64,000 bases of DNA, from positions 23,932,001 to 23,996,000 of the forward strand of contig CM114271.1 of assembly GCA_050084515.1 (NCBI GenBank), read 5' to 3'. Below the pieces are notes generated by a model. The model searched no databases, was not told where the DNA came from, and saw only the letters and a list, made by a program, of their open reading frames with translations. Shown one piece after another: positions 1 to 60,363 of the stretch. The translations under genes were made by a program, and so were the position numbers. How positions within the stretch are numbered: position 1 is the first letter of the stretch; each line of letters starts with the position of its first letter. This stretch comes from Blasia pusilla. Lineage: Eukaryota.

Positions 1-469
1 GGGTCCTCATCAAAGTTCCTGGAGAGTTGGTAATGTTGTTGGTGTGAAAGCACGGAGGGCGATGGGAGAAGCGAGTGCGACGACTCCTATTGTTGATGCT
101 CAGGAGGGGCATGTGTCAAGCACGTTCTTGGGGGCGGCCACCGTTGTGTACCGCACTCCTTTATTTTCTGCTTCCGATGTTGTGACGTTGGGAGGTACGC
201 CCGCCGAGGCTTCTCGGCTGGCCGCTTCACTATGTGAGCGCGGAGTTGGAGTTCCTGCATCACGTTCAGAGGTGATTGCAGAGGAGGTGATGGACCTGCC
301 CTTGGAGCGGATGCTAGGGCCGTCCACGTCAAATTCATGGCAGGCTGCAGCTACTAGGATGGCGGAGATGCCCGCTAGACCCGCGATAGAGCGTGCCATG
401 GCTTCTCCTGGTATTGTGTTGCTGGATAACCGAGGAGAGGTCTTCCAGTTGGTGAGTCGTGGAGGTAGA

Positions 470-830
470 GCTTTTAGTCTTGTTGGATTCAGGAGCGCAA
501 CCCTTGATGTTGGGGAAAGCGTCATTCAGAGGATTGGGCTTGACGAGAGCCGATGTGGAGTGTTGTCCATTTCGGATACAGACATCCTTGGGTGGAGCGA
601 GTACCACAAGATATATCACCCGGCTGGAGTCGTGGTGAGGATTCGCGGGACATCCTGCGATGAGTCCGTGGTGTGCGCCAAGGCGATAGTGATCGATCTT
701 TGAGTCCTACGACGTCTTGGTTGGTGGAGCGATGTTATACCCGATGGGGTTTCCTGGATTACTAGGAGGAGTCAACGTCCCCTGAGACCAGGATGGCGTC
801 GGTGATGGGCGCCTTAGCTCATTACCCGTT
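470..830 (+). pseudogene. Retroviral-type aspartic protease domain of copy 1
   Basis: A frame not shown in the ORF track reads LLDSGAQPLMLGK (GAT TCA GGA GCG at 486-497); SYDVLVGGAML follows at about 705-738 after frameshifts. Confidence 0.8.
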
Positions 831-1180
831 TGATTCACAGTGCGATGATCGAGCAGCGGCCAGGAGAGATGGCGACCTTAGCAAAGATTTAGCAAAGTGC
901 CATCACTTGGCCTAGTGATTTGATTGAGGACATGTCCATGCAGAGGATACTCCCTTTCCGACATTTCTGTGGAGAGGAGTGTTATGGTAGTGCATCATTC
1001 CGTGGAGGAGAGGTGCATTGTGGGGCTCGATTGAGGAGCTTCAACGATTGGCGGATCGCAAGACATGCAGCATCGCGTGGAGCGGCGTTTGCACAGAGCG
1101 TGACGGGTCCGAGGAACCCGAGGTAGCGGGAGTGCTACGATGACACCCTTGGATACTACACCCATTGTGTGGTGTACCCG

Positions 1181-2150
1181 GAGGAGGGTATTCGAGTGTT
1201 AGATCTCTTTGGAGGGATTAGCACGGGTTAGTGCTTGTTTTGCAGCGGGAGTGCGAAAGTCTGGAAGATACTTGTATGTGGAGAGTGATGATGTTGCAGG
1301 CGTCTCACTACGACATGTGGCGCAATTACGCCACGTTTTCGACTTATTATGCGTCCAGCGATGGGTACCGAGTTCCCTATCGAGGATATTTAGTTGTTGG
1401 GGCGCAGGACTAGAGCGGGTAGGGACCATTGATTTGGTCATTGCCGGTTGGCCATGTCAGGGCCAATCGAGTGCTGGACGAGGCAGCGGGTTGGCTGACA
1501 CTCGGTCCAGGTTGTTTTGGGAGATGTTGAGGATCTTACTTTACAAAGAGAGAATCTTACGGCGATTGCAGGAGCACCAATCTCGTTCCCAGCCTACATT
1601 CTAGAGAATGTGCCGATCTTAGGAGACTCCAGGTCACGGGTCGTGACGAGTGCTCATCAGGTGCGTGCCTGGATCGGCCCAACAGTGTTCTTGGATGCGG
1701 CGAGTGTAGGTTCTAGAGCCCATCGCCCGCGTCTATGGTGGACCAACTTGGTGCCCCATGCGGTGTTATGGAGGGCGATGCAGAGTGGAGCGCCCCCCCT
1801 TTGTTAGTGGATTCCATTTCGATCCGGTCGCCGATCACGGCAAAGTGAGGCACGATGATCGACCACCGCCGACGTAGGGTCAATAGGTAGGGTAGGCCGC
1901 GGGCGAGCGCCTTGCCCACGTTTGTGAGTTTTCCCGCTTCCTATGCATACAAGCAGGCCGGTCCTGGCTTGATTTGGGATGACCAGGTTCAGCGGTTGGT
2001 GGAGCCCAACGCCGAGTAGAGAGAGAGCGAGCGATGGGATTTCCCACAAGAGTGACGGCAGTACCATCAGTGTCAGAGGCATCACGACGCCATGTCTTGG
2101 GTCAGGCGATGGACCTGAACTGCTTGACATGGATCCTCAGCTTGGGAGTG
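1181..2150 (+). pseudogene. DNMT3-like C5 cytosine DNA methyltransferase domain within pol (frameshifted)
   Basis: Motif I IRVLDLFGGISTG (1190-1228); motif IV DLVIAGWPCQ; motif VI YILENVP; motif VIII AHRPRLWWTNL; motifs IX-X MGFPTRVTAVPSVSEASRRHVLGQAMDL. Confidence 0.9.
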
Positions 2151-2559
2151 GCTGAGAAGCGTCGTATGAGATCGCGACAGATCACAGCGGTTGCGTTGGA
2201 GAGCCCCATGCCTACCGAGAGAGTGGAGGCAGTGGCTGGGGGCGAGACCCAAGGAGATCTACGCACCAGGGTAGATCGGGAGAGACACCCTTGGACTTCT
2301 TGGGATGTTTTGAAGGTACGCAAGGAGATGATAGCCACAAAGATCGAGCGTGGTTTTTGCAATCGCACACGTGGAGGAGATCGAGTTTGCGATTGGTCGC
2401 AGGAGAGCGGCCGAAAGTGTTGTTGTTCGAGACGGGTTGCACCATAGCAACCACCGATACCCGCGCGGAGAGTCCTACCGTAGTCACGATGGAGACTTGG
2501 GAGCCGATATGGGCCCTAAGTTGACACAGGAGGAGAGCGGCGCCGAATACATCGTTCCT

Positions 2560-3910
2560 CGGGAGTTATAGGAGCCGCTGCGTTTAGCATGGAGGATTTG
2601 GGTACGTTGAAGGGACCGGGATCCGCATTGAGTTGTCGAGTGATATGCCGATCTTCCGACGACCCTACAGTGTACTGATGATATGGAGAGGGCTCGATTG
2701 AGTAGGAGCCAAGACTTGGTCGGAGCAGACTAGTGGAGATGTCGCATGGGGAGTATGCATCTGCGCCTTGTCATGCCCGCCAAGAAGGATGTGCATGGCA
2801 ACTGGACGGATAGGCGGATGTGTGGGGATTACCGACCTATCAATCAGCAGACGAAGTCCGATAGGTATGCCATGCCCACCCCTGAGGAGATCTTTGATGC
2901 GATTGGTCACGCAAAGGTCTTGAGTTCATTGGATTTGCGAGCTGGATACCATCAGCTGCCTATAAGATTGGAGGACAGGCAGAAGACGACATTTTGGGGC
3001 ATCGATCCTCACGGGAAGGATTGTTTGTACCAGTGGCGGTTCTTACCATTTGGGTTAAAGAACGCCCCGGCTGAGTTTCAGAGGGTCATGGATAGGATCT
3101 TGGCTGGTCTGGATTTTGCTAGGTGTTATATTGATGACATCGTAGTCTTTAGCACCACGGTTGAGGAGCATGAGCAACATCTAGAGGAGGTGTTTCGACG
3201 ATTGCAATTACATGGGCTGAAGCTACATCCAGGCAAGTGCAAGTTCTTCTACGACCAGATTGAGTACTTGGGTCATACGATATACCCAGGGGGCCTTGGT
3301 GTTCAGCAGACGAAGGTAGAGGCTATCTCACGCATTTTACGCCCTACAGATGTGAGCCGTGTTCGCGCATTCATGGGATTGGCAAACTTCTATCGGCGAT
3401 ACGTCAAGGGATTTAGTTCGATTGCGAAGCCGCTGACCTTGCTCACCAAGTGGATCACGAGTGGCACTCGGGGGGATGAGCGAGCGAGCATTTGATTGCT
3501 CAAGGATAGGTTGACGTCCGCACCCATCTTGAGGAGACCGATCGGCGTCCTTTCCATTGCACCACGATTGGAGCATGTTGGGGCTTGGAGCGGTGCTCAC
3601 CAAAGATGATGATGAGGGTAGAGAGTTTGTGGTGGCTTACGCTAGCCGCTCGAACAACGCCGCAAAGGCTAAATACACTCGTATGAGGGTGAGTGCTTGG
3701 TCGGTGTGGGTCGTCGCGCATTTCAGGTGTTACTTATTCGGCAACCCTTTACCATCATCACTGATCATCAACCACTGAAGTGGTTGATGGAGTCCGACAA
3801 GCTTACAGGGAAGCTTGCGAGATGGGCTCTGTTGTTGCAGGAGTATGATTTTGGTGGTACATAGACTGGAACGCTCAACCAGGATGCAGATGGGTTGAGT
3901 CGTAACCCAT
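2560..3910 (+). pseudogene. Reverse transcriptase and RNase H of copy 1
   Basis: RMCGDYRPIN, LDLRAGYHQ, LPFGLKNAP, YIDD (3127-3138), KCKF, YLGH; RNase H DWSMLGLGAVL, VVAYASR, DADGLSR. Confidence 0.95.
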
Positions 3911-4099
3911 GCCCGTCGGCCGAGATGTGAGTGGAGCTCGATGGCATGGAGAGAGTGATGAGGAGTCGGTGGCGGTGGATGGCACGCGGCGTCGGCCTAT
4001 TCGGGCATGTTGGCTATGGAGAGCCAGAGTGTGGAGACTTCGATGGCGAGGTCTAGTGGAGAGTCTTTGGATCCCGAGGCGAGTGAGGACACGACAAGT

Positions 4100-5540
4100 G
4101 GCCGAGATATTCATGATGATGGAGTAGTCTTAGAGTACCTTCGTAGTGGCAGCCTTGTGAGCACCATGGATGCTAGAGAGCGGGATCGGATCCTACAGCG
4201 GGCCAGACGGTTCCGTTGGGAGGGGACATTTGTTTTGAGGGTTTGGGAGGATGGCAGAGTACGCGTAGTGCCGCATCCTTTGCAGAGAGCACAACTAGTG
4301 CAGCATGCCCACGAGGAGTTGGGTCACTTTGGGGTGAAGCGGACGTATAGCTTGCTCCAGATTCAGTATTGGTGGCGAGGCATGCAGACTGACGTTCAGC
4401 AGTTTGTTGCCAGGTGCATGGTGTGTGATCGGGTCCGAGCATCGTTCAATGCTCCGACTCCACAGTTGCATCCATTACCAATCATGGGCTTAGGGTATAG
4501 ATGGAGTTTGGATTTTGCAGGACCTTTGCCCTTGACGGAGCGTCACAGTCGTTATGTGTTGGTGATGGTCGAGCACTTCTCGAAGTGGATCGAGTTGGTT
4601 GCATTGCCTGACAAAGCGAGTGAGGGAGTAGCTTATGCCTTCCTTGACAGAGTTCTGAGTCATTATGGCATACCAACTTAGGTGTTGACAGATCAGGGTA
4701 CCGAGTTTCGTGGTGAGTTCCAGGCCTTGTGTGATCAGGCGCTGATCGGCCACCACACGACTTCGCGAGATCATCTCGAGGCGGATGGATTAGCGGAGAG
4801 AGTTGTCCAGACGGTGAAGAGGGTTTACGCAAGTATGGCTTGCAGAGAGGTCACCTAGGAGATTGGGACCTCCAGTTGCCATGGTTGGCGATGGGATACA
4901 GATTCAATAGGCAGGCATCCTTAGCGTCTTTTTCACCGTATTTGCTACTTTATGGCCGAGAGCCAGATTTACTTGCGGCCATTCGTCGAGATCTTTGGTG
5001 AGGTCTGAACCTTGATGACCCTGATGTATGGGTGCGAGCATGTTCTCAGAGGGCTGAGTTATTTCGGAGAGTGATGCCCATGGCGTTCGAGAACTTAGCG
5101 ATTGCACAACATCGGGATACGTTGAGGTATGCGACTATTCGAGGTGGTGGTTATCGACCAACTATCCGGAGGTTTCATCATGGAGATTATGTCTATTTGC
5201 AGCAGACGGCAAGCGGCGTTGGATGTGATGCAGGCGCACTATCCTGAGAGTGCGTGACATTTTGCCATCGGGTGTTCTCTTGCTGGAGGGACGCGATGGT
5301 ATGGTATGGAAGGACCATGTGCGTAATTGTGCGCCATGTCACCTTCCTATCATTGATGGTAAAGTAGATCCGAGCTTAGTAGTAGTTCCTGCAGGCTTGC
5401 GTTGTATGTTTGTGGTTACGCCGTAGTGCGCCACGATGCTAGTCTGTGATGGGTGTTCGAGAGGATGGCATATGGCATGTTTGACGCCACCTCTCACTAG
5501 GGTTCCTAAGGGACGATGGATGTGTCCCAGATGTACATAG
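4100..5540 (+). pseudogene. DDE integrase with C-terminal PHD finger, copy 1
   Basis: HHCC motif HEELGHFG...CMVC; core SLDFAGP / VLTDQG / GLAERVVQ; PHD ...[33 protein letters not shown] with stop at 5538-5540. Confidence 0.92.
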
Positions 5541-5711
5541 AGAAGGTAGTTCTACATTCCGACTTGTGTCTATGACATGGATGACAAGGAGGCGACTAAC
5601 GATGGGGCCACATGAGCACCCGACCTTCTTGCTCTTAGCGTCCGAGAGATGTATGTCATGATAGGTAGGGATAGATGGCTATCTGGAGTTAGAGGGACCT
5701 AACCACCAGCT

Positions 5712-5720
5712 AGGGGGGCG
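5712..5720 (+). promoter_or_regulatory. Polypurine tract of copy 1
   Basis: AGGGGGGCG lies immediately before ATTGGAGATA, the start of repeat B; the same arrangement is at 25321-25329 (-) in copy 2. Confidence 0.75.
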
Positions 5721-6490
5721 ATTGGAGATATTTTGGTTCTTCTTGTCTCGTTGTTTGGATGCCATGAGTTAGCATGGGATCATGCGTGTTTGTGTGTGTG
5801 TTCGGTGATAGCGATGTATGTTGTGTAGCGATGTGTATGCGCACGACAGCTATCACGTCTTTTAGGATAGATCGGTGGGATCTAATAGAGCTCCTTCATG
5901 AGTAGTGGAGGACACGCCCAGTAGTCGAGGGTGACCTGCTGAGGCCCTTGGAAACCTGAGATAGCAGGTTTCCCCTTCGTTTCGGCTCATTTGGAGCCAT
6001 ATTGAGGAACTTACTATTTTAGGTAAGTACCATTTTGAGTATATGATCGACTTTCTAGTTTTGGTAAGTGGCCCTTGACCTCCTACATCAAGTCAAGAGC
6101 CAAGTAAGTGACTTGGGAGAATAGGTTACCATGGAGAGAGCTTGGGAGAGGAGAGGGGTATACCTCAAGGAAAGAGAGCTTGAGAGCTCATTCTCTCTTT
6201 GTTGAACCTCTTGGCATGAGGCGGCGGAGCTATGGTACCTTGTCTTGTGAGTGTAACCCAAGCCTCTCATTAGGAGAGTGGGTTTGGTTTGACATGAGAG
6301 AGAGTGCACACCTTTGAGAGCTATGGTGTGAGATGGTGGAGAGAGAGATTGGATCTTACTTTATTGGAGATATTTTGGTTCTTCTTGTCTCGTTGTTTGG
6401 ATGCCATGAGTTAGCATGGGATCATGCGTGTTTGTGTGTGTGTTCGGTGACAACGATGTATGTTGTGTAGCGATGTGTATGCGCACGACA
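5721..6490 (+). repeat. Split terminal repeat B1 (5721-5848) - GC - A2 (5851-6362) - B2 (6363-6490)
   Basis: The 128-bp B unit is present twice and nearly identical, flanking a ~510-bp A unit homologous to 33757-34273 and 24692-25190. Confidence 0.92.
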
Positions 6491-6499
6491 GCACACATG

Positions 6500-22400: not shown

Positions 22401-24564
22401 CGAATTCCGATGCGTGGACCCGATTCTCGAAGGACGGGCGGAAGGAAGAAGGTAAGATATCTTGCTATCGTTCTTGGCGTTTAGCTCCGCTTGGCGCGTA
22501 CTTAATTCTTCCCGAATCCTGATCATCGACTTTCGATGGGGCCTCTCTCGCTCCCTTGTCACCACTATGTCTTTTCCGGAGCGCATCGCTCACGGGGGAA
22601 AGAGCCAGCATTGATGATAATCCTCGATCACGTCCTCCGGTCATTTTTCTTTCTTTCTCTCTACGACCCCTCCCCTGACCGCTGGGGCCTCGACGACACC
22701 GGACGGGACTCGCGATAGTCGTAGGACCTCAAGGATGGGACAAGGGGCTACGATCCGATCCGGATGACTACGGAAGTCCCAATTTATCACGTGCATGATC
22801 GAGCCAGGGCACGGGACCGGGCGCATCCCGTGCTCTCGGGCGAGCTACCGGACTGCCATGTTCATGCGGATTCGAGGAGGGACAGGACTCGGTAGCGAAA
22901 AGAGGCATCTTGGGATTGTGCGCGTGGTATGTGGGCGCTTGTCATACGACGTCGCATGCACTATTCCAGTCCTCCCAAAGCGGGACCTTTGGGCGGCCTT
23001 ACAGCGAAGTAGTAAGTACTTAAGTACTGCATCGATTTCGGTCGGCGCACTTGCACTTTCCCGTCCCCGTTCCCTCTCTCGGACGCAATCGACGCGCTCC
23101 CTGTCGTCGTCGGCGGAACTGCACAGTCGGACGTCGTCCGGTGCATGATGAGGATCCGGATGTAATATGCTTAGCATTAGGAGAGCATCGCTTAACGTGT
23201 GTAATTCACGATAGTTTCAAGGAATCGAGGACTAGGAAAGAAAAGACGAAAGTACTAATCACTACGTCGTCCTTTGCGCGTGATGGGACCACACATGTCA
23301 TGGACATGGATTTCATTCTTGTTCCGGAAATTTTAAACGTCCGGAACAAGAATTATTAACACTGGCTGGCCAGCTAGTGTTAAGAAAGAATTAGAGTCAA
23401 GAATTAGATAAAATGGTGAAAATTTTTGGTTTTTTTTAAGTTAATGATTAAATCTTTTTTAATCAATTTAAATCAATCCTACTCATCGAAAGAACTAGTG
23501 ATCCAATTAAATGAAATGGCGAACAATCTTGTTGGTTGAAGGGAGCATACGTGAAGAGAAGAGTTGTTTAAAAATCAAGAAGGGATTTTGCAATAGTACC
23601 TTAAAGTACTTGATAATCCTTCCACGTGAATATAAAAACTTCTCCTATGAATGGAGCTTTGACTCATCATTCCAGTCGGCATTTAGTGCCGACTAAGGTA
23701 ATAGCTTTTGGTTTTGCTTTCAGGCTTCGGAGCTAGGGTTTGTACCTTGAAATAAAGGTGGGGTAACATTCCACTTATGTTTGGTGCCCACATAAAATTT
23801 TAACTAGCGTGGCCCCTTGCCTTGTAAGATAATCATGGGGGAGTGGAGTAGCACTTACAGAAGATTTAATATGGCACTATTTTAATTTTTGTAATACATA
23901 GAGAACCCAAATCCATTTGGGGTTCATGTTGGGGATAAAGATACCATTAGTAAATGAAAAAAAAATAGAAGAAATTTGGTTCAACCAAATTAATTCAAAA
24001 TTGGATCTAAAATCATAAGAGAAAAGAATAGAAATTTCACTTTTATGAACTAAACTGATAATAGTATAAACTATGTCAAGAGAGTAGGGGGAGGGGGATT
24101 ACTAAAAAGATAACTTCTTGCAATTATATATCTTTTATCCCATGCACTTTGTGAAAACCCGATGTGAATGGCTCAAAGGAGTTACAAGGCCCATTGCTAA
24201 ATATTTTCATGGGGACAGTCATACACCTTAATGATTTAAATCATGTAATAAGTAGTTACGAGAAAATCAAGTTTTGGGTGTGTGTTGGTTTCGAGTTTGA
24301 TTCAGTTCTTTGAGTTGACTCAAAGAAAGGATTTTCATGGCTTTTTTTACTAAAAAAATTCAATATTTTCTCCCAATTTTTATTATTTTATTATTTTTGT
24401 TCCAAAATAATGTGACAAAGATCATAACCATGTACAAGGTACCATAATTTCACTCTATTAAGAAAAATCTTCATCAAGAAAGAATTTCAAGAAGATCATA
24501 TTTCCCAAGAAGATTTTCTTTTAACGTAAGTACTATCAAGGTAGCATATGGATAAAGTCGTTGT

Positions 24565-25320
24565 TGTCGTGCGCATACACATCGCTACACAACACACATT
24601 GTTGTCACCGAACACACACACAAACTCGCACAATCCCATGCTAACTCATGACATCCAACAACGAGACAAGAAGTACCAAAATATCTTCAATCTCTCTCTA
24701 CACAATCTCACACCATAGCTCTCAAAGGTGTGCACTCTCTCTCATGTCAAACCAAACCCACTCTCCTAATGAGAGGGTGGGGTTACACTCACAAGGCAAG
24801 GGACCATAGCTCCGCCGCCTCATGCCAAGAGGTTCAACAAAGAAAGAATGAGCTCTTAAGCTCTCTCTCCTTGGGATATATACCCCTCCCCTCTCCCAAG
24901 CTCTCTCCATGGTAACCTATTCTCCCAAGTCATCTCCTTGGCTCTTGATCTGATGTAGGAGGTCAAGGGCCACTAACCAAAAATACAAAGTCGATCATAG
25001 ACTCAAAATGGTACTTACCTAAAATAGTAAGTTCCTCAATATGGTTCCAAATAAGCCAAAACGAAGGGAAATCTGCTCTCTCATGTTTCTCAGGGCCTCA
25101 ACAGGTCATCCTCGACCTCCTAGGCATGTCCTCCACTACTCTTGAAGACGCTCTACTAGATCTCACCGATCTATCCTAAAGGACGTGGCAATTGTCGTGC
25201 GCATATACATTGCTACACAACATACATCACTGTCACCGAACACACACACAAACACGCACGATCCCATGATAACTCATGGCATCCAAACAACGAGACAAGA
25301 AGTACCAAAATATCTCCAAT
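24565..25320 (-). repeat. 3' split repeat of copy 2: B1 (25193-25320) - AT - A2 (24692-25190) - B2 (24565-24691)
   Basis: Same B-A-B layout as 5721-6490; PPT at 25321-25329. Confidence 0.92.
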
Positions 25321-25506
25321 CGCCCCCCTAGTTGGTGGTTAGGTCCCTCTAACTCCAGATAGCCATCTATCCCTACCTACCATGAGATACATCTCTCGGA
25401 CGCTAAGAGCAAGAAGGTCGGGTGCTCATGTGGCCCCATCGTTAGTCGCCTTCCTGTCATCCATGTCAGAGAAAAAGTCGGGATCGAAACCTACCTAGTA
25501 TCTCCT

Positions 25507-27000
25507 CTATGTACATCTGGGACACATCCATCGTCCCCGAGGAACCCTAGTGAGAGATGGCGTCAAACATGCCATATGCCAACCTCTCGAACAACCATCA
25601 CAGACTAGCATCATGGCCGCACCACGAGCAGAACCACACAACATACAACACAAGCCTGTAGGAACTACTGCTAAGCTCGTATCCACTGTACCATCAATGT
25701 TAGGAAGGTGACATGGTGCACAATTATGCACATGGTCCTTCCATACCATACCATCACGTCCCTCTAGCAAGAGAACACCGGATGGCAAAACGTCACGCAC
25801 TCTCAAGATAGTGCGCCCTGCAGTCACATCCAACGTTGTCGGTGCCGTCTGCTGCAAGTAGACATAATCTCTCTGATGAAACCTCCGGATAGTTGGTCAA
25901 TAACCACCACCCCGAATAGTCGCATACCTCAACGTATCCCAATGCTGCACAATCGCCAAGTTCTCGAATGCCATGGGCATCACTCTCCGGAATAACTCAG
26001 CCCTCTGAGAACATGCTCGCATCCATACATCTGGGTCATCAAGGTCCAGCACCTCACTAGCATCTCAACGAATGGCCGTAGGTAAATCTGGCTCTCGGCC
26101 ATAAAGTAGCAAGTACGGTGAAAAAGACGATAAGGATGCCTGCCTGCTAAATCTGTATCCCATCGCCAACCATGGCAACTGGAGGTCCCAATCTCCTAGG
26201 TGACCTATCTTCAATCCATACTTGCGTAAATCCCTCTTCACCGTCTGCACAACTCTCTCCGCTAATCCATCCGCCTCGGGATGATCTCGCGAAGTCGTGC
26301 GGTGGTCGATCAGCGCCTGATCACACAAGGCTTGAAACTCACCGCGAAACTCGGTACCCTGGTCTGTCAACACCTTAGCCGGTGCGCCATAATGACTCAG
26401 CACTTTGTCAAGGAAGGCATAAGCTACTCCCTCACTCGCTTTGTCAAGAAATGCAACCAACTCGATCCACTTCGAGAAGTGTTCGATCATCACCAACACA
26501 TAACGATTGTAACGCTCCGTCAAAGGCAAAGGTCCTGCAAAATCCAAACTCCATCTATACCCTAAGCCTATGATCGGTAATGGATGCAACTGTGGAGTCG
26601 GAGCATTGAACGATGCTCGGACCCGATCACACACCATGCGCCTGGCAACAAACTGTTGAACGTCAGTTTGCATGCCTCGCCAACAATACTGAATCTGGAG
26701 CAAGTTGTACGTCCGCTTCACCCCAAAGTGACCCAACTCCTCATGGGCATGCTGCACTAGTCATGCTCTCTGCAAAGGATGCGGCACTACGCATACTTTG
26801 CCATCCTCCCAAACCCTCAAAACATGTGTCCCCTCCCAACGTAACCGTCTGGCCCGCTGTAGGATCTGATCCCGCTCTCTAGCATCCACGATGCTCGCAA
26901 CGCTGCCAGTAGGAAGGTACTCCAAGACTACTCCATCATCATGAATATCTCCGCCACTTGTCATATCCTCACTAGCCTCGGGATCCAAGGACTCTCCATT
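25507..27000 (-). pseudogene. Integrase plus PHD finger, copy 2
   Basis: ORFs 26065-26757 (HEELGHFG, SLDFAGP, VLTDQG, GLAERVVQ) and 25507-25857 (CMLC...CDGC...HMAC...CPRC, C4HC3). Confidence 0.92.
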
Positions 27001-27129
27001 AGACCTCGCCATCGAAGTCTCCATAGTCTAGCTCTCCATAGCCAACATGCCTAAATAGGCTGACGCGTGCCATCTTGGCACTGACTCCTCATCACTCTCT
27101 CCATGCCATCGAGCTCCAATCGCATCTCG

Positions 27130-28555
27130 CTAACTCGGGCCTGGGTTACGACTCAACCCATCTGCATCTTGGTTGAGCGTCCGGGGTCTATGTACCACCT
27201 GAAAATCATATTCCTGCAACAACATAGCCCATCTCGCAAGCTTCCCTATAAGCTTGTCGGACTCCATCAACCACTTCAGTTGTTGATGATCAATGATGAT
27301 GGTAAAGGGGTTGCCGAATAAGTAACACCTGAAATGGGCGACAACCCACACCGCAACCAAGCACTCACCCTCATACGAGCTGTACTTTGCCTCTGCAGCT
27401 TTGTTCGAGCGGCTACCATAAGCCACCACGAACTCTCTACCCTCATCATCATGTTGGGTGAGCACCGCTCCAAGCCCCAACATGCTCCAATCTGTGTGCA
27501 ACTGGAAAGGACGCCCCCGGATCGGTCTCCTCAAGATGGGCGCAGATGTCAACCTATCCTTGAGCAACTGAAATGCTCGCTCTTGCTCACCCCCAGTGCC
27601 ACTCATGATCCACCTTTGTCAGCAAGGTCAAGAGCTTCGCAATCGAACTGAATCCCTTGACGTACAGCCGATAGAAGTTCACCAATCCCGTGAATGCGCG
27701 AACACGGCTCACATCTGTAGGACATGGAATGCGTGAGATAGCCTCTACCTTTGTATGCTGAACACCAAGGCCCCCTGGGTATATTGTATGACCCAAGTAC
27801 TCAATCTGGTCGTAGAAGAACTTGCACTTGCCTGGATGTAGCTTCAGCCCATGTAATTTCAATCGTCAAAACACCTCCTCTAGATGTCGCTCATGCTCCT
27901 CAACCGTGGCTCTAAAAACTATGATGTCATCAATATAACACCCACAAAAATCCAGACCAGCCAAGATCCTATCCATGACCCTTTGAAACTCAGTCGGGGC
28001 ATTCTTTAACCCAAATGGTAAGAACCACTGGTACAAATAATCCTTCCCGTGAGGATCGATGCCCCAAAATGCCGTCTTCTACCTGTCCTCCAATCTAATA
28101 GGCAGTTGATGGTATCCAGCTCGCAAATCCAATGAACTGAAGAGCTTTGCGTGAACGAACGCATCAAAGATCTCCTCAGGGGTGGGCATGGCATACCTAT
28201 CGGACTTCGTCTGTCGATTGATAGGTCGGTAATCCCCACACATCCGCCTATCCGTCCAGTTGCCATGCACATCCTTCTTGGCGGGCATGACAGTGGCAGA
28301 TGCATACTCCCCATGGGACATCTCTACTAGTCGTGCTCTAACCAAGTCATGGCTCCTACTGTGAATCAGAGCCCTCTCAATATCACAGTACCTGTAGGGT
28401 TGTCGGAAGATCGGCGTATCACTCGACAACTCAATGCAGATCCTCGGTCCCTTCAGCGTACCCAAATCTTCCATGCTAAATGCAAAGTAGCTCCTATAAC
28501 TTGTGAGGAACTGATGTATCCGGCGCCGCTCTCCTCCTGTCAACTTAGGGCCCAT
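27130..28555 (-). pseudogene. RT and RNase H, copy 2
   Basis: RRMCGDYRPIN, LDLRAGYHQ, KCKFF, LHTDWSMLGLGAVL, YEGECL, DADGLSR. Confidence 0.95.
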
Positions 28556-28914
28556 ATTTGGCTCTCAAGTCTCCATCGTGACTACGGTAGGACTCTCTAG
28601 CGCGAGTATCGGTGGTTGCTATGGTGTAACCGCGTCTCGAACAGCAACGCTCGGTTGCTCTTCTGCAGCCAACTACAAACTCTGATCTCCACATGCAGTG
28701 TTCGGAACCACGCTCGATGTTGTGGCTATCATCTCCTGGCGTACCTGCAAAATATCCCAAGAAGTCCAAGGGTGTCTCTCCCGATCTCCCCTGGTGTGTT
28801 GATCTCCTCGGGTCTCGCCCCCAGCCACTGCCTCCACCGTCTCGGTAGGCATGGGGCTCACCAACGCAACCGCTGTGATGTGTCGCGATCTCATCCGACG
28901 CTGCTCAGCCACCC

Positions 28915-29835
28915 CCAAGCTGAAGATCCATGTCAAGCAGTTCATGTCCATCGCCTGACCCAAGACATGGCGTCGTGATGCCTCTGATACTGATGGGACT
29001 GCCGTCACTCCTGTGGGAAATCCCATCGCCCGCTCTCTCTTGTTGGCGTTGGGCTTCACCATCCTTTGAACCTGGTCATCCCAAACCAAGCCAAGACCGA
29101 CCTCCTTGTATGCATAGGAAGCGGGAAAACTCACAAGCGTGGGAAAGACTGTCCGCGGCCTGCCTACCCTGTTGACCACAGTTAGCAGTGGTCGATCATC
29201 GTGCCTCACTACTTGTGATCAACGACCTAGATCTAGAATGGAATCCACTAACAAATGGGAGGGGCGCTCCACTCTCGCATACGCCCTCCGTAACACCGCA
29301 TGGGGCAACAAGTTGGTCCACCATAGATGTGGGCGATGGGCTCTAGAACCTACACTCGCTGCATCCAAGAACACTACTGGGCCAATTCATCCACGCACTT
29401 GATGAGCACTCGTCACCACCCGTGACCTAGAGTCTCCTAAGATCGGAATATTTTCCAGAATGTAGCCTGGAGAATGAGACTGGTGCTCTTGCAACTGCCG
29501 TAAGACCCTCAACATCTCCCAAAAAAATCTGGACGGAGTGTCAACCAACCCACTACCTCGTCCAGCACTCGATTGGCCCTGACATGGCCAACCGACAATG
29601 ACCAAATCAATGGTCCCTACCCGCTCTAAGTCCTGCGCCCCCAACAAGGAAATATCCCTTGGTAGGGAACTTTGGTACCCCTATACCGCGGACGCAGACA
29701 ATAAGTCGGGAAAACGGAGGCGTAACTGCGCCACATGTCCTAGTGAGACACACCTCGCAACATCATCACTCTCCACATACAGGTACTGTTGTACTCGCAC
29801 TCCTGCCTGCAAAACAGCAGCTAACCTTGTGCTGA
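28915..29835 (-). pseudogene. DNMT3-like C5 methyltransferase domain, copy 2 (motif I deleted)
   Basis: DLVIVGWPCQGQS, YILENIP, ERAMGFPTGVTAVPSVSEASRRHVLGQAMD. About 340 bp corresponding to roughly 880-1217 of copy 1 is missing at about 29837. Confidence 0.88.
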
Positions 29836-30649
29836 TACTGAGGTCGCCATCTCTCCTGGCCGTCGCTCGATCACTGCACTTGTGAATCGAACGGGTAATG
29901 AACTAAGGCGCCCATCACCTGACTGCCATCCTGGTCTATAGGATCGACTCCTCCCAATAATCAGGTCGGTATAACATCGCTCCACCATCCAAGACGTCGT
30001 AGGACTGCATGAGTCACTATCGCCTTGGCTCGCACTTCCTGACTCATATGTAGGATGTCCGGGAGAATTCTCACCACGACCTCTGTTGGGTGATATACTA
30101 TGTGGTACTCGCTCCATCCAAGGATAATGAATGGACAACGCCACATCAGCCCAATCCTGAATGACGCCATCATCGGGGTTGGTCTAAATCAACAAGACGC
30201 TGCCGCGACTAAAAGCTCTCCCAATAATCCAGCAACACAACACCAGGAGAAGGGCATGGATCTAGCGGGCATCTCCGCCATCCTAGGGCGTGGGCGGTCC
30301 GAGCATCCGCTCCAAGGGCAGGTCCATCACCTCCTCTGCAATTACCTCTAAACGTGATGCAAGAACTCCAACTCCGCGCTCACATAGCGAAGCGGCCAGC
30401 CGAAAAGCCTCGGCGGGCGTACCCCCCAATGTCATAACATCGGAAGCAGAAAATAAAGGAGTGCGGTACACAACGGTGGCCGCCCCCAACAACGTGATCG
30501 ACACATGCCCCTCCTGAGCATCAACAATAGGAGTCGTCGCACTCGTTTCTCCCATCGCCCTCCGTGCCTGCACACCAACAACATCACCAACTCTCAAGGA
30601 ACTTTGATGAGGACCCATCGATGGGATCCTCATCGCTTCGGACAATGTG

Positions 30650-32900
30650 AAAGACTGAGGAAGCCTAGTCTATTTTCTGGCTTCCCCTCGTTGTGGATCC
30701 AACTTTGCGGCTGCTCCACGCGTCACAACTGCGGCGGCCTCCATCTGGGCAACCCCGCACATCCAACCAGGATCCTCCAGATCTCTGGCTGCTCCATATG
30801 ATGTCGATGCCACGGATCCGGCATCGGGTAACCTCAATGCCATAATGGCAATCTGCTCCTGTAGATGTTGTATCTGAGCAGCCATCCCAGCCTCACGTCC
30901 GGCGTCTCCCTCGGCGCATCTAGGTGGTGGTACTCTACCTCCTCCACGGGCAGCTCCACCACCTTGTCGGGAAACTCCAGCTCCTCGTCCCCCAAGGGGA
31001 CCTTCTGGTGCAGCACCATCTCCTCCTCCATGCTGAGGCAACGTCCATGACCCTGATGAGTGCAATCGCGATGATGATGGGCTCCACCACATGACCAACA
31101 AGTAATAGTGGGCGGCTGCTGCTGAGCCGCATATGAAGGCACAGGTCTCTGTGGCACGGCCTCCTGGTATCCTCCCTGAGCTCGTGGTGCCACAGTCGAC
31201 CTATCCCGGAGTCCACGTTGCTGCACAGGTGGTGCAGACAATTGTGACTGCTCTTGCCCAGAACCCATGGTGGCTACGCTCTCCTCCGCCATGTTGCGCT
31301 CAATGTTCTCGGCGGTCCTAAAAACATCTCTCAACGTAGGGGAGTGTTCATAAGAAGCATCCCCTCCCGCACCCATGTCCGCAGGGTCCGGTCCAGCATC
31401 GCGTAATATGACTGGATAGCCTGAGCCTCTGTCACCCCCTGAGTGATGTTGATCAACCGGCGCAAGCGAGTGTAAGCCTCACGCAAACTCTCACCCGGGC
31501 GCCTCTGGAAGTCATGGATGCTCTGCAACTTCTCCGTCCGTAACCCCCTGGTAGCTCGCCCTCAACTCAGTAAAGAACTCAACCATGGGGTTGAACCTGG
31601 GACGAACCCGACTAGACGGTGCAACTGCTCCAATGCGAGTGACCCCTCCTAAAACATCACTAGTGGAAGAGGAAGTAGCCTCTCATGACTCCTCCTCCTC
31701 ATCTGAGAACGGCTCCGTCCATGACACATAGTGTGGGTCGTAATAGAGTCGCCATGCCTCAATCTCTTGGGCATATCTGTGGGAAAAGTCATGGTAATCG
31801 TCCATGGGTGCCCCCTCCTAATGCTGGAACATACCATTCCATGCTATAAACGGGTTAAACTCTCTAGAGTTCCTGGCCCGCTAGGAGTCGTACCAACTCC
31901 TAAACTCTGCTATGAACTCGTGCAACTCAATCGTACCTACTGCACTTGAAAACCTACGCGGTCCTCTACGTCCTTCTCGTACGCCCAACTGGTAGGACCA
32001 CTTACAATGTGTGGCGATGTGCTCACAAACTCCTATACACCCTCCCCCTCGTCTGACGATGACACAGAAGGAGGTCGAGGTGATCCCTGAAGTGAAGACC
32101 CTCGGAACCTCACGCCACTCCGCGTAAAACCTCTAGAGCTACTCTCGGGTTCACCACCTTGTCTCTCAAAGTCCCGAACAGACGCCTTGATGACCCTGGT
32201 GCCCTCCTCACCCGATCACTCTTGCCTTGAGAGTAATCCCTCAATCATTCATCCCAAACATGCAACACTTGATCTACACTCTCCCTCCCCGAGACATGTA
32301 ACGTGCGGAAATAAGCGGCGTGGTGGGGCAAATCGACCAGGCTATCATTTCATCGATAACCTACCCTCAACTCCAAACATCCCACATAGGTCTATGTCCC
32401 CTAAACCACATACATAAATGATGCTCTCAGGATCCACACATCCAGTATCCCCAAATAAACTACCCAAATTCCAAAATCCCTCACACGTGCAGGGTAAATG
32501 ACCAGAATGGGTAACCTGAACACATCTCAATGTCGCTCCTCAGCAACTGCAAATCTCGACCCAAACTCAATCATGGAGACAACTCCTCCAATCAGCAAGT
32601 CATACTCCTCCCGTACTAACGTTGCTCAAAACTCCTTGATAGACGGTGCGGTTCTAGCGGAACGGTGCAGCGTTGCAGGTGGCACGGAACGGCTACGAAT
32701 GACACGGCCCTCGATGATGGGATGCGGCACTCGCGGCATACCCTCCTCAATCAACAATAAACCCACACTCTGCTCCACAATGTCGGAGCGGCTCCGCGAT
32801 CGAGACGCTGCGGTGCGGCCACGAGCGGCACGGCGCGGCAATCAACGGCGCGTTGCGGCTACGGGCGTTACGGCACAGTACTCGATCGTCGTCGAGCGGC
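30650..32900 (-). pseudogene. Gag of copy 2
   Basis: FQRRPGESLREAYTRLRRL (retrotransposon gag motif, 31331-31528), CWSCGGAHHHRDC zinc knuckle and AVVTRG motif. The N-terminal limit is uncertain. Confidence 0.75.
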
Positions 32901-33744
32901 TACCAATCACAACATAGCAGCATGAAATCAAAACTCAAACACTAGAACATGAGGTCATATGCCATCACAGGTTGATGACGGTGGCGGCCAAAACAAAGTA
33001 CGTGATGGCGACGCAAGTCCGAGAATCAACGAACGTTGTGGAAGACCCTCCACTCCGTAACGGCGGCAATGGCAACCAAGGGTGGATAACGGACGGTGGA
33101 CCATTGACTGTGATGGTGACGGCCAAACGGTGACGATGACGGTTGACCATCGACGGTGATGGTTGATGGAGACTATAACGGAGACGGCCGCCGCCGGTGT
33201 GGCGTTTGGTTTAGGGTTTGCACAATTTAACCCTAAAAATCGCCTAGCAATGGCAGTTTTTCAAGATTGATCATAACTTTTTGCTCGCAACTCCAAATTG
33301 CGCATTGTTTGTTGCACAGCGTGCACAGCTTCACGATCTACACGAGAATCAAAAAATATTTAGAATCTAGCATTCCAGTAAAAATTTACAGGGACTGTCG
33401 TAAAGCCCAATGTCTCTTTCTCCTACACAAAATTCGGCAACGCTTCCGCGCTGATTCCTCCCAACAAAAACGTAAAACCTGTAAAAATGAAAATCAGAAA
33501 GTGACATGGTGCTCCCAAAAGCACCGGCATGGGGCAACCCGCCCCCATACTCAATCCCTATCAGAAATTGGGCAGCGCTTCCGCGCGCCACTCTTCCACA
33601 CGAAAAATCAGAAAATGCAAAGAACAATCCAAGCAACCCTTGCTCCGATGAGCACTCCCATGACCGTTGAACGGGGAACACGGTCCCCAACCTGCAAAAA
33701 TAGCGAGTGACCAATGAGCTCCCCCATGAAGCTCTCTCATTCTT

Positions 33745-33759
33745 TCATTCTCTCATTGT
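33745..33759 (-). promoter_or_regulatory. Putative self-priming primer-binding site at the U5 end
   Basis: Minus-strand ACAATGAGAGAATGA is complementary at 14/15 positions to TCATTCTCTCTTTGT at the predicted TSS; no TGG-type tRNA PBS is adjacent. Confidence 0.65.
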
Positions 33760-34273
33760 AAAGTAAGATCCAATCTCTCTCTACACAATCTCACACCATA
33801 GCTCTCAAAGGTATGCACTCTCTCTCATGTCAAACCAAACCCAATCTCCTAATGAGAGGCTTGGGTTACACTCACAAGGCAAGGGACCATAGCTCCGCCG
33901 CCTCATGCGAAGAGGTTCAACAAAGAGAGAATGAGCTCTCAAGCTCTCTCTCCTTGGGATATATACCCCTCTCCTCACCCAAGCTCTCTCCATGGTAACC
34001 TATTCTCCCAAGTCACCTCCTTGGCTCTTGACCTGATGTAGGAGGTCAAGGGCCACTAACCAAAAATAGAAAGTCGATCATATACTCAAAATGGTACTTA
34101 CCTAAAATAGTAAGTTCCTCAATATGGTTCCAAATAAGCCAAAACGAAGGGAAATCTGCTCTCTCAGGTTTCCCGGGGCCTCAGCAGGTCATCCTTGACC
34201 TCCTGGGCCTATCCTCCACTACTCTTGAAGACGTTCTACTAGATCTCACGGATCTATCCTAAAGGACGTGACA
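33757..34273 (-). repeat. 5' terminal repeat A1 of copy 2 (no B unit)
   Basis: Matches A2 (24692-25190) with roughly 20-25 substitutions in ~500 bp by eye; unique flank begins at 34274. Confidence 0.92.
33928..33965 (-). promoter_or_regulatory. LTR core promoter: TATA box and initiator
   Basis: TATATAT at 33965-33959; TCATTCT (YYANWYY) at 33934-33928, with the +1 A (33932) 33 nt after the first T of the TATA box. Confidence 0.6.
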
Positions 34274-34501
34274 TTGTCCGCGGACAATGCCAGATATGTC
34301 CATGTATGTGAACTTACGTCCGTCCGATGGAAGGACTTATCCATGTGGGCCTCAACTTTCTCTTCTTTCTTATTCTCTCCACTTGCCTATGTGTTCCATA
34401 CTTTCCTCTTGAAGCCCATAGATTGCCTCGGTATCGCACTTAATGCGAGATCGGGCAGCTTGGACGCGGGCAGGCAAGTGAGGGGGAATGCCAAAACAAT
34501 A

Positions 34502-34573
34502 AATGCAGCCGGATTCGAACCCGGGTCTTTGCACCGGCACTCCGCGACCCTATCCACTATCCTACCAGCATTC
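34502..34573 (-). pseudogene. tRNA-Gly-like pseudogene or tRNA-derived SINE head
   Basis: Minus strand has TAGTGGATAGG (A-box-like), TGCC and AGACCCGGGTTCGAATCCGGCTG (B-box/T-arm as in tRNA-Gly), with AATGC/GCATT ends. The anticodon stem is broken. Confidence 0.55.
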
Positions 34574-60192: not shown

Positions 60193-60363
60193 AAAAAGTC
60201 CGGCACATTGACCCATCAATTGAAGAAACATTTCCCCAGAAGAAGAGCACAGACAGCCATTACTTGCTTAGCCACTCGAAAAAGTCCGGCACATTGACCC
60301 ATCAATAGAAAAAACATTTCCCCAGAAGAAGAGCACAGACAGCCATTACTTGCTTAGCCACTC
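60193..60363. repeat. Tandem duplication, 2 x ~86 bp
   Basis: AAAAAGTCCGGCACATTGACCCATCAAT...TTACTTGCTTAGCCACTC is repeated with about 2 mismatches. Confidence 0.9.

What the first reader, a model, noticed from the sequence alone, without database searches (positions are those of the whole stretch)
6340..6375. A|B junction differs between copies, like independent end-joining scars of 2-LTR circles
Seen: the U5 end in A1 reads GAGAGAGATTGGATCTTACTTTACA and B starts ATTGGAGATA. Copy 1 joins ...ATCTTACTTT|ATTGGAGA, losing about 3 nt. Copy 2 (about 24685-24700) joins ...GAGAGAG|ATTG, losing about 18 nt at an ATTGGA microhomology. B is intact in both. Inference: this junction is made anew in each cycle by imprecise or microhomology-mediated joining of cDNA ends, so the B-A-B layout was not simply inherited from one rearranged ancestor.
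Basis: partly seen in the sequence, partly recalled or inferred. Interest (0 to 1): 0.75.

Follow-up and report, generated by a model that had tools for sequence, protein, structure and literature searches.

The report
Retrotransposon end-to-end joint, two variants
The site is where the tail of one terminal repeat meets the head of the next in an unusual plant retrotransposon whose repeats are laid out A-genes-B-A-B, and the two copies in the window differ there by a single 15-base deletion between two ATTGGA motifs, which may be a joining scar or simply later decay.

Summary
Copy 1 reads ...GATCTTACTTT|ATTGGAGATA. Copy 2 reads ...GAGAGAG-ATTGAA-GATA, which is 15 nt shorter, and the deletion lies between two ATTGGA motifs.

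The element has Ty3/gypsy domain order (DNMT fragment, RT, RNase H, DDE integrase, PHD finger). Its repeats are split direct repeats, A1-internal-B1-A2-B2. This layout is in print for KnitGypsy-Dnmt3 of Klebsormidium and is typical of DIRS/Ngaro elements.

- A polypurine tract abuts B1, and a sequence complementary to an internal stretch of A abuts A1. By these reverse-transcription signals the repeat unit is B+A.
- The integrated termini (TGTC...GACA, with a 4-bp duplication in copy 2) are A-start and B-end.
- A|B is therefore the U5-end/U3-start joint. In copy 1 it is flush, not 3 nt short.
- B1 and B2 are homogenised within a copy, and sense RNA depth over B2 is 13-14% of that over B1. Both favour a joint re-formed each cycle.

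Two copies cannot separate a microhomology joining scar from a later slippage deletion in an old copy. The read lay did not resolve junction variants, and no outside copies could be fetched.

The parts
6348..6368 (+). Copy 1 A2|B2 joint: ATTGGA-TCTTACTTT | ATTGGA. The two ATTGGA motifs lie 15 nt apart. The joint is flush between the U5 end (...CTTACTTT) and the B start (ATTGGAG).
24686..24691 (-). Copy 2 A2|B2 joint: a single ATTGAA shared by the end of A and the start of B. It is 15 nt shorter than the copy 1 joint.
5721..5848 (+). Copy 1 B1 (ends ...CGACA). It is preceded by the polypurine tract AGGGGGG at 5712-5718.
5849..5850 (+). Copy 1 2-nt spacer (GC) of the B1|A2 junction: ...GACA-NN-T(G/A)TCACG.
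5851..6362 (+). Copy 1 A2. It contains the stretch CTCATTCTCTCTTTG (6187-6201), which is complementary to the sequence that follows A1 in the family.
6363..6490 (+). Copy 1 B2, the right end of the element (...CGACA). Unrelated flank begins at 6491.
1..5720 (+). Copy 1 internal region, cut by the window start. It carries a DNA_methylase fragment, RVT_1, RT_RNaseH, Integrase_H2C2 and rve. All frames are broken.
33760..34273 (-). Copy 2 A1, the left end of the element. It starts TGTCACG and contains TATATAT at 33965-33959 and the primer-complement stretch at 33935-33921.
33744..33759 (-). Copy 2 primer-binding-like site directly after A1 (ACAATGAGAGAATGAA). It has 2 mismatches to the 15-mer read consensus.
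25193..25320 (-). Copy 2 B1, preceded by AGGGGGG at 25329-25323.
24692..25190 (-). Copy 2 A2 (starts TGCCACG). The 2-nt spacer AT lies at 25192-25191.
24565..24691 (-). Copy 2 B2, the right end of the element (...CGACA).
34274..34277 (-). Copy 2 left target-site duplication, ACAA.
   Evidence: read directly
24561..24564 (-). Copy 2 right target-site duplication, ACAA.
   Evidence: read directly
25321..33743 (-). Copy 2 internal region: weak gag, DNA_methylase fragment (29387-29680), RVT_1, RT_RNaseH, Integrase_H2C2 + rve, and a PHD finger (25507-25896). All frames are broken.

Best explanation
The site is the head-to-tail joint of the terminal repeats in a Ty3/gypsy-order retrotransposon. The element encodes a DDE integrase, a PHD finger and a DNMT fragment, and its repeats are split direct repeats: A1-internal-B1-A2-B2.

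Two reading frames of the repeats are offset by one B:
- The reverse-transcription signals define a repeat unit B+A. A polypurine tract sits before B, and a probably self-priming primer site sits after A.
- The integrated ends, and the inverted TGTC...GACA termini that an integrase would use, are A-start and B-end.

A|B is therefore the joint of the U5 end to the U3 start, the same joint as in a 2-LTR circle. B|A (...GACA-NN-TGTC...) looks like the site that is opened for integration.

Inferred: the joint is re-formed at each replication cycle by joining the two cDNA ends, normally flush as in copy 1. Copy 2's form is the same joint minus 15 nt between two ATTGGA motifs. It arose either by microhomology-mediated joining at that cycle or by a later slippage deletion. 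Two copies cannot tell which.

Shown: the anatomy, the flush joint, the single-indel relation between the two copies, homogenised B copies, and low RNA depth over B2.

Inferred only: the circular intermediate, integrase cutting at B|A, and self-priming.
For: Layout and identities:
- Domain order, from Pfam hits on broken frames, is DNMT fragment, RT, RNase H, integrase, PHD.
- No tyrosine recombinase hit was found in 14+33+38 ORF pieces (same calls).

Reverse-transcription signals:
- AGGGGGG lies 2 nt before B1 in both copies.
- The 15-mer that follows A in RNA and DNA reads (loose end at 6363) is the exact reverse complement of A at 6187-6201 and at 33935-33921.
- Allowing up to 2 mismatches, this 15-mer has 5 matches in the window against 0.23 expected.
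- It lies 30 nt downstream of TATATAT.
- The same U5-end/primer-site joint is copied as a 21-nt filler at 1533-1553 in copy 1.

Integration signals:
- The termini are TGTCACG...CGACA, with ACAA on both sides of copy 2.
- B|A keeps GACA + 2 nt + TGTCA in both copies. It also does so in an RNA read variant that carries a different A after the B end (loose ends at 5849 and 5855).

Regeneration of B2:
- Within copy 1, B1 and B2 are 98.5% identical, against 91-94.5% between copies.
- There are 3 copy-specific against 1 position-specific informative sites.
- Sense RNA depth over B2 averages 18 (X22) and 36 (X23), against 145 and 254 over B1. That is 13-14%.

Precedent:
- The same repeat layout with Gypsy domains and a DNMT is in print for KnitGypsy-Dnmt3 (PMC5890265, section 9 and Fig. 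4c legend read).
Against: - Only two copies were available, so heterogeneity among independent insertions was not measured.
- In the lay of two DNA runs, none of the 12 shown indel rows (36 in all) lies at A|B. The odd contigs touching the joint are single and rare.
- The majority junction therefore looks uniform. That fits flush joining, but it fits inheritance equally well.
- About 13-14% of sense RNA depth does continue into B2, so a minor read-through RNA carrying the joint exists.
- A circle would hold two identical B|A sites. The other permutation (A-B-A-int-B), and A-int-B from 1-LTR circles, should then also occur. Neither is seen in 2 of 2 copies here, which is weak evidence.
- The primer-site complementarity sits in GA/CT-rich sequence. 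In the folded copy-2 RNA the 5' stretch pairs elsewhere in A.
- The transcription start and the poly(A) site were not mapped: table 6 lists no pile-up of starts or ends.
- The target-site duplication rests on one copy.
Confidence: 0.5

Rival explanations
1. The junction is inherited and copy 2 decayed later. On this reading the A-int-B-A-B unit is copied as a whole, as proposed for DIRS/Ngaro-type elements, from a transcript that runs through A2|B2. The joint is then passed on unchanged. Copy 2's 15-nt gap is an ordinary deletion between two ATTGGA repeats, made by replication or reverse-transcriptase slippage in that lineage or after insertion.
For: - A single indel flanked by a 6-nt direct repeat explains the whole difference.
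- Copy 2 is old: A1/A2 are 95.4% and B1/B2 90.7% identical.
- The two copies differ by 79 indels, 9 of them 10 nt or longer within the shared part.
- A second repeat-flanked event, the 21-nt filler with ATCTTAC repeats, shows that microhomology switching occurs in this family.
- None of the 12 shown indel rows (36 in all) lies at A|B.
- 13-14% of sense RNA depth continues into B2.
- Split direct repeats are the hallmark of elements thought to rebuild their ends from an internal template (PMC7192593, passages read; PMC8547959, passages read).
Against: - With a primer site after A1 and a polypurine tract before B1, standard strand transfers would not copy B2 or the joint, even from a read-through RNA. 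This is inference from the established LTR reverse-transcription scheme.
- B1 and B2 are homogenised within a copy instead of diverging by position.
- No tyrosine recombinase is encoded.
- A 4-bp duplication flanks copy 2.
- Within copy 2's own repeats (about 630 bp, twice) the only other indel is 1 nt. A 15-nt post-insertion deletion exactly at the joint is therefore not expected by position alone.
Confidence: 0.35
2. B2 is not part of the element. On this reading the B-A-B look arises from nesting, from tandem elements or unequal recombination, or from misassembly of a very abundant repeat.
For: - The family is extremely abundant: 128,060 contig pieces were laid from one run. Collapsed or chimeric assembly is therefore conceivable.
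- Nested insertions are common in repeat-rich plant genomes (general knowledge).
Against: - Two copies at different loci, on opposite strands, both end with B2 at the same base and then run into unrelated flanks.
- Copy 1's B2 is closest to its own B1, at 98.5%.
- Contig pieces from two independent runs are laid across the A|B and B2 region.
- The same layout is in print for another Gypsy-DNMT family.
Confidence: 0.04

Closest known systems
KnitGypsy-Dnmt3 of Klebsormidium nitens (de Mendoza et al. 2018, PMC5890265; section 9 and Fig. 4c legend read)
   Same: - It has Gypsy domain composition with a DNMT inside the polyprotein.
- Its repeats are arranged 'the same as that of a DIRS retrotransposon', that is A-coding-B-A-B.
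- The window element has the same layout and a PF00145 fragment upstream of RT in both copies.
   Different: - Sequence relatedness was not tested, because no KnitGypsy sequence was at hand.
- The nearest proteins found are Marchantia polymorpha hypothetical proteins at about 50% identity.
- The sections I read of the paper do not describe primer sites, termini, duplications or the A|B joint.
- A PHD finger is present here. The term 'PHD' has 0 occurrences in that paper.
Ngaro / PAT / TOC-type DIRS-order elements with split direct repeats (PMC8547959, PMC4157794, PMC7192593; passages read)
   Same: The A1-[ORFs]-B1A2B2 layout, with an internal B1A2 junction that reproduces the junction of the element's two termini.
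   Different: - Those elements encode a tyrosine recombinase and no rve integrase.
- The window element encodes Integrase_H2C2 + rve, gave no tyrosine recombinase hit, has TG...CA termini, and has a 4-bp duplication in copy 2.
Retroviral 2-LTR circle junctions and their cleavage by integrase (PFV: PMC1180852; HIV-1: PMC1905944, PMC4372172; search listing and abstract starts only)
   Same: - A U5 end abuts a U3 start.
- A palindrome-like CA-NN-TG junction can be cut by integrase to give integration-competent ends.
   Different: - In retroviruses the two things are the same junction, and circles are side products.
- Here the RT joint (A|B) and the integrase-type site (B|A) are different places, 128 bp apart, and the integrated form is permuted.
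- No circular DNA was observed here.
Tf1/sushi (Tcn1-clade) self-priming Ty3/gypsy elements (PMC6317226; passages read)
   Same: - There is no tRNA-type primer site.
- A 15-16-nt stretch directly after the 5' repeat is complementary to a stretch inside the repeat, downstream of a TATA motif.
   Different: - The transcription start was not mapped and clade membership was not tested by phylogeny.
- Tf1/sushi elements have ordinary LTRs and a chromodomain, not split repeats, a PHD finger or a DNMT. The chromodomain point is recalled, not checked.

Membership tests
Ty3/gypsy LTR retrotransposon | Pol domain order RT - RNase H - DDE integrase | tested here: met
   RVT_1, RT_RNaseH, Integrase_H2C2 and rve occur in that order in both copies. 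The frames are broken.
Ty3/gypsy LTR retrotransposon | Two identical LTRs that form both ends of the element | tested here: not met
   The left end is A alone and the right end is B-A-B. No B lies upstream of A1.
Ty3/gypsy LTR retrotransposon | TG...CA termini and a 4-5 bp target-site duplication | tested here: met
   The termini are TGTCACG...CGACA, with ACAA on both sides of copy 2. This rests on one copy, because the left end of copy 1 lies outside the window.
Ty3/gypsy LTR retrotransposon | Polypurine tract before the 3' repeat and a primer-binding site after the 5' repeat | tested here: met
   AGGGGGG lies 2 nt before B1 in both copies. A 15-16-nt self-complementary site follows A1. There is no tRNA-type site beginning TGG (read directly).
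DIRS order, split-direct-repeat elements (Ngaro/PAT) | A1-internal-B1-A2-B2 repeat layout | tested here: met
DIRS order, split-direct-repeat elements (Ngaro/PAT) | Encodes a tyrosine recombinase and lacks an rve integrase | tested here: not met
   No PF00589 hit in 14+33+38 ORF pieces, while rve and Integrase_H2C2 are present. Because the copies are decayed, the absence of the recombinase is not absolute.
DNMT-bearing Gypsy with DIRS-like repeats (KnitGypsy-Dnmt3 type) | C-5 DNA methylase domain inside the Gypsy polyprotein region, plus an A-coding-B-A-B layout | tested here: met
   PF00145 fragments at 29387-29680 (E 1.9e-8) and 1203-1601 (E 4e-9), both upstream of RT. The layout is as shown above.
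DNMT-bearing Gypsy with DIRS-like repeats (KnitGypsy-Dnmt3 type) | Sequence relatedness to the K. nitens family | not tested
   No K. nitens sequence was available. The nearest hits are Marchantia polymorpha proteins at about 50% identity.
2-LTR-circle-type end-joining junction | U5 end directly abuts U3 start | tested here: met
   The copy 1 joint is ...CTTACTTT|ATTGGAG. The U5 end is set by the primer-site complement, and the U3 start by the polypurine tract.
2-LTR-circle-type end-joining junction | Junctions of independent events are heterogeneous (small deletions or insertions) | tested here: inconclusive
   The two copies have two forms. In the read lay none of the 12 shown indel rows (36 in all) lies at A|B. 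No further copies could be fetched.
2-LTR-circle-type end-joining junction | Existence of the circular DNA | not testable with these tools
   This needs sequencing of extrachromosomal DNA.
Tf1/sushi-type self-priming | Primer site complementary to the first bases of the transcript | tested here: inconclusive
   The complement is exact over 15 nt and lies 30 nt after TATATAT. The transcript start was not mapped (table 6: none), and the fold of the decayed copy pairs the 5' stretch elsewhere.

The most novel reading that the evidence does not exclude
This would be a DDE-integrase retrotransposon that must pass through a circle. Reverse transcription makes a linear cDNA with (B A) repeats whose ends are not integrase substrates. 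The ends are joined head to tail, giving A|B: flush as a rule, occasionally at the ATTGGA microhomology. The integrase then opens the palindrome-like B|A site inside one repeat, producing the permuted A-int-B-A-B insertion with TG...CA ends and a 4-bp duplication. Split direct repeats would then be a by-product of a circle stage, independent of tyrosine recombinases. That would link LTR elements and DIRS/Ngaro elements mechanistically.
Probability: 0.3. Interest if true: 0.8.

Novelty: new variant of a known kind. Interest (0 to 1): 0.55.

Why it matters
Split direct repeats have been treated as the signature of tyrosine-recombinase retrotransposons. Their occurrence on a Gypsy element with a DDE integrase was noted in one figure legend (PMC5890265), and in my searches I found no explanation of it.

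The anatomy here gives a concrete, testable picture. The repeat unit defined by the reverse-transcription signals and the termini used for integration are offset by one B. As a result, one junction (A|B) is the cDNA end-to-end joint and the other (B|A) is the integration site.

If the joint is re-made each cycle, this family would be a natural case of integration from a circular or end-joined intermediate by a retroviral-type integrase. That idea has long been debated for retroviruses. It would also suggest how DIRS/Ngaro-like layouts can evolve from LTR elements.

The family is also very abundant, is transcribed in the sense direction in two RNA runs, and carries a DNMT domain with relatives in a liverwort.

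Tried and rejected
**Getting more copies failed**
- No whole genome is held for this window.
- A gapped pattern spanning the junction found 0 loci in viral contigs and 0 in metagenome contigs.
- A 22-mer from the most conserved part of A found 0 loci in metagenome contigs and 0 in genome contigs.
- Three look-ups of earlier findings (by place, sequence and words) gave nothing relevant.

**The one read lay**
- It shows only the best-supported rows: 12 of 36 indel rows, 15 of 59 joints and 12 of 36 'letters between'.
- The spectrum of junction variants could therefore not be counted.
- No listed contig bridges A|B with 31 letters on both sides.
- No holder of the stretch is on record as RNA in the run search. 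RNA evidence comes only from the two raw-read runs that were laid.

**Other dead ends**
- Read-derived variant motifs, one showing a different B and one a different A, are absent from the window.
- ARAGORN and Rfam found no tRNA or known RNA in the window. The tRNA-like stretch upstream of copy 2 therefore remains unnamed, and no host tRNA was available to test as a primer.
- The bacterial promoter/terminator scan is not meaningful for a eukaryote and was ignored.
- Goodwin and Poulter 2004 (the Ngaro paper) is not held. What I say about their model is recalled.

**Readings considered and rejected**
- LTR = A+B with a truncated 5' LTR. This is rejected because the polypurine tract lies before B1 and nothing B-like follows A1.
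- B as a long target duplication. This is rejected because no B lies upstream of A1.

Full report
**What is in the window.** Repeat finding and BLAST show two copies of one element.
- Copy 1 lies on the + strand. It is cut by the window start and ends at 6490.
- Copy 2 lies on the - strand from 34273 to 24565.
- Both copies are decayed, with all frames broken.
- Pfam hits on the ORF pieces give this order: weak gag, a C-5 DNA methylase fragment, RVT_1, RT_RNaseH, Integrase_H2C2 + rve, and in copy 2 a PHD finger.
- No tyrosine recombinase hit appeared in the 14+33+38 pieces scanned.
- No other A or B copies occur in the window.

**Repeat layout.** In element orientation copy 2 reads: ACAA | A1 (34273-33760) - internal - AGGGGGG-CG - B1 (25320-25193) - AT - A2 (25190-24692) - joint - B2 (to 24565) | ACAA.
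- Copy 1 shows the same 3' part: AGGGGGG (5712-5718), B1 5721-5848, GC, A2 5851-6362, B2 6363-6490, then unrelated flank.
- Nothing B-like precedes A1.
- This is the split-direct-repeat layout A1-[ORFs]-B1A2B2 of Ngaro/PAT elements (PMC8547959 and PMC4157794, passages read).
- It has been noted once for a Gypsy element with a DNMT. [quoted passage not shown]
- The word KnitGypsy occurs in no other held paper.

**The observation.**
- Relative to copy 1, copy 2 lacks exactly ATTGGATCTTACTTT. This 15-nt segment is followed by a second ATTGGA (forward repeat 6). The retained motif reads ATTGAA in copy 2.
- B|A has the same spacing in both copies...GACA + 2 nt + T(G/A)(T/C)CACG.
- An RNA read variant in which a different A follows the end of B shows the same spacing, continuing T-TGTCATGACC (loose ends at 5849 and 5855).

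**Where A really ends.**
- In RNA and DNA reads, the sequence that follows A at 6363 has the consensus CAAAGAGAGAATGAG... (loose ends: 42 reads in X22, 67 contigs in X1).
- This 15-mer is the exact reverse complement of A at 6187-6201 and at 33935-33921. It has one mismatch at 24838-24852. Copy 2's own site after A1 (33744-33758) has two mismatches.
- Allowing up to 2 mismatches, the 15-mer has 5 matches in the window against 0.23 expected.
- With the preceding A the complementarity is 16 nt (read).
- The complementary stretch in A begins 30 nt after TATATAT (33965-33959).
- There is no TGG-type tRNA primer site after A1.
- This is the arrangement described for self-priming Tf1/sushi-type elements, which PMC6317226 (passages read) predicts for the Tcn1 clade found in mosses.
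- I treat self-priming as inferred. The transcript start was not mapped (table 6: none). The region is GA/CT-rich, and in the fold of the decayed copy 2 RNA the 5' stretch pairs with another GA-rich stretch.
- If the primer site starts at that A, U5 ends ...CTTACTTT. The copy-1 joint CTTACTTT|ATTGGAG is then flush: the '3 nt lost' are primer-site letters.
- The same U5-end/primer-site joint (TTTACAAAGAGAGA) is found as a 21-nt filler between two ATCTTAC repeats inside the DNMT region of copy 1 (1533-1553). It is absent from copy 2. It is an independent witness of that joint in copy 1's lineage, and of microhomology template switching in the family.

**Two frames of the repeats.**
- By the reverse-transcription signals (polypurine tract before B, primer site after A), the unit that standard strand transfers would duplicate is B+A. 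The expected linear cDNA is (B A)-int-(B A). This is inference from the established LTR scheme.
- The ends of that unit (ATTGGAG... and ...CTTACTTT) are not inverted repeats and lack TG...CA.
- The integrated ends are A-start and B-end. These are inverted (TGTC.../...GACA), and copy 2 is flanked by ACAA on both sides. That fits a DDE integrase, but it rests on one copy.
- The integrated element is therefore a circular permutation of the expected cDNA. A|B is the joint of the two cDNA ends, the 2-LTR-circle joint. B|A (GACA-NN-TGTC) looks like the site opened for integration.
- Integrase cleavage of palindromic circle junctions has precedents for PFV and HIV-1 (PMC1180852, PMC1905944, PMC4372172; search listing and abstract starts only).

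**Is the joint re-made each cycle?**

Evidence for:
1. With these signals, B2 and the joint would not be copied from RNA.
2. B1 and B2 are homogenised within a copy.
   - In copy 1 they are 98.5% identical, against 91-94.5% between copies.
   - There are 3 copy-specific against 1 position-specific informative sites.
   - At the one position-specific site, both letters occur at both places in the reads (5811 and 6453).
3. Sense RNA depth over B2 averages 18 (X22) and 36 (X23), against 145 and 254 over B1. That is 13-14%, with a weaker strand bias.

Evidence against or neutral:
- The 13-14% shows that some RNA does read into B2.
- None of the 12 shown indel rows (36 in all) lies at A|B.
- The odd forms touching A|B are single low-depth contigs: one with 2 extra letters at the joint, and one complex form joining at the ATTGGA position. 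Similar oddities occur all along A (tables 4, 5, 5c).
- Most copies therefore seem to have the copy-1 spacing. That fits flush joining and inheritance alike.
- A circle has two identical B|A sites, so other permutations should exist. None is seen in 2 of 2 copies here, which is weak evidence.

**Copy 2's deletion.** It can be either of two things.
- A microhomology-mediated join: ATTGGA lies at the very start of B and 15 nt from the end of A.
- A later slippage deletion.

Evidence bearing on this:
- Copy 2 is old (A1/A2 95.4%, B1/B2 90.7%).
- The two copies differ by 79 indels over about 6 kb at 90.1% identity.
- On the other side, copy 2's own A and B pairs show only one other indel, of 1 nt.

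I put about even odds on the two origins, given a re-made joint.

**Context.**
- The family is very abundant: 128,060 contig pieces were laid from X1 and 5,809 from X3.
- C>T and G>A changes dominate among the differences.
- It is transcribed in the sense direction in two RNA runs.
- The DNMT piece has relatives at about 50% identity in Marchantia polymorpha hypothetical proteins that carry PF00145 near their C-terminal part. DNMT-bearing elements of this kind therefore occur in a liverwort.

**Verdict.**
The place is indeed the 2-LTR-circle-type joint, and it is probably regenerated each cycle. Heterogeneity by imprecise joining is not shown, and copy 1 is not a scar.
- The layout itself is a known kind, a Gypsy-DNMT element with DIRS-like repeats.
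- The offset between reverse-transcription signals and integration termini is, in the searches I ran, not described in print.

Noticed in passing
window 1533-1560 (copy 1), compared with 29506 in copy 2: A 21-nt insertion lies between two ATCTTAC repeats inside the DNMT-coding region of copy 1 and is absent from copy 2. It copies the U5-end/primer-site joint of the element (TTTACAAAGAGAGA). It looks like a double template switch at microhomologies.
   Followed up: partly
window 29387-29680 (-) and 1203-1601 (+): C-5 cytosine DNA methylase (PF00145) fragments lie upstream of RT in both copies. The nearest proteins are Marchantia polymorpha hypothetical proteins at about 50% identity, with the DNMT match near residues 840-1030 of proteins 1,034-1,278 aa long.
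   Followed up: partly
window 25507-25896 (-): A PHD finger (PF00628, E 4e-11) lies downstream of the integrase core in copy 2, where chromoviruses carry a chromodomain. It was not detected in the decayed copy 1.
   Followed up: no
window 34500-34570 (-), upstream of copy 2: A tRNA-like stretch (...gggttcgaatcc...) lies in the 5' flank of copy 2. ARAGORN and Rfam call nothing there. It may be a SINE or a tRNA relic.
   Followed up: partly
window 60193-60363: Two tandem copies of an 85-nt unit, 98% identical, with 86-nt spacing.
   Followed up: no
window 5685-5855, from RNA reads laid: Read variants show module swapping in the family. After the polypurine tract a different sequence replaces B (loose end at 5721). 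After the end of B a different A follows that still begins TGTCA after a 2-nt spacer (loose ends at 5849 and 5855).
   Followed up: partly
window 892-1224 (copy 1), compared with 29827 in copy 2: A 333-nt stretch is present in copy 1 and missing in copy 2, upstream of the DNMT fragment. Several further indels of 13-32 nt lie in the first 750 nt of copy 1.
   Followed up: no
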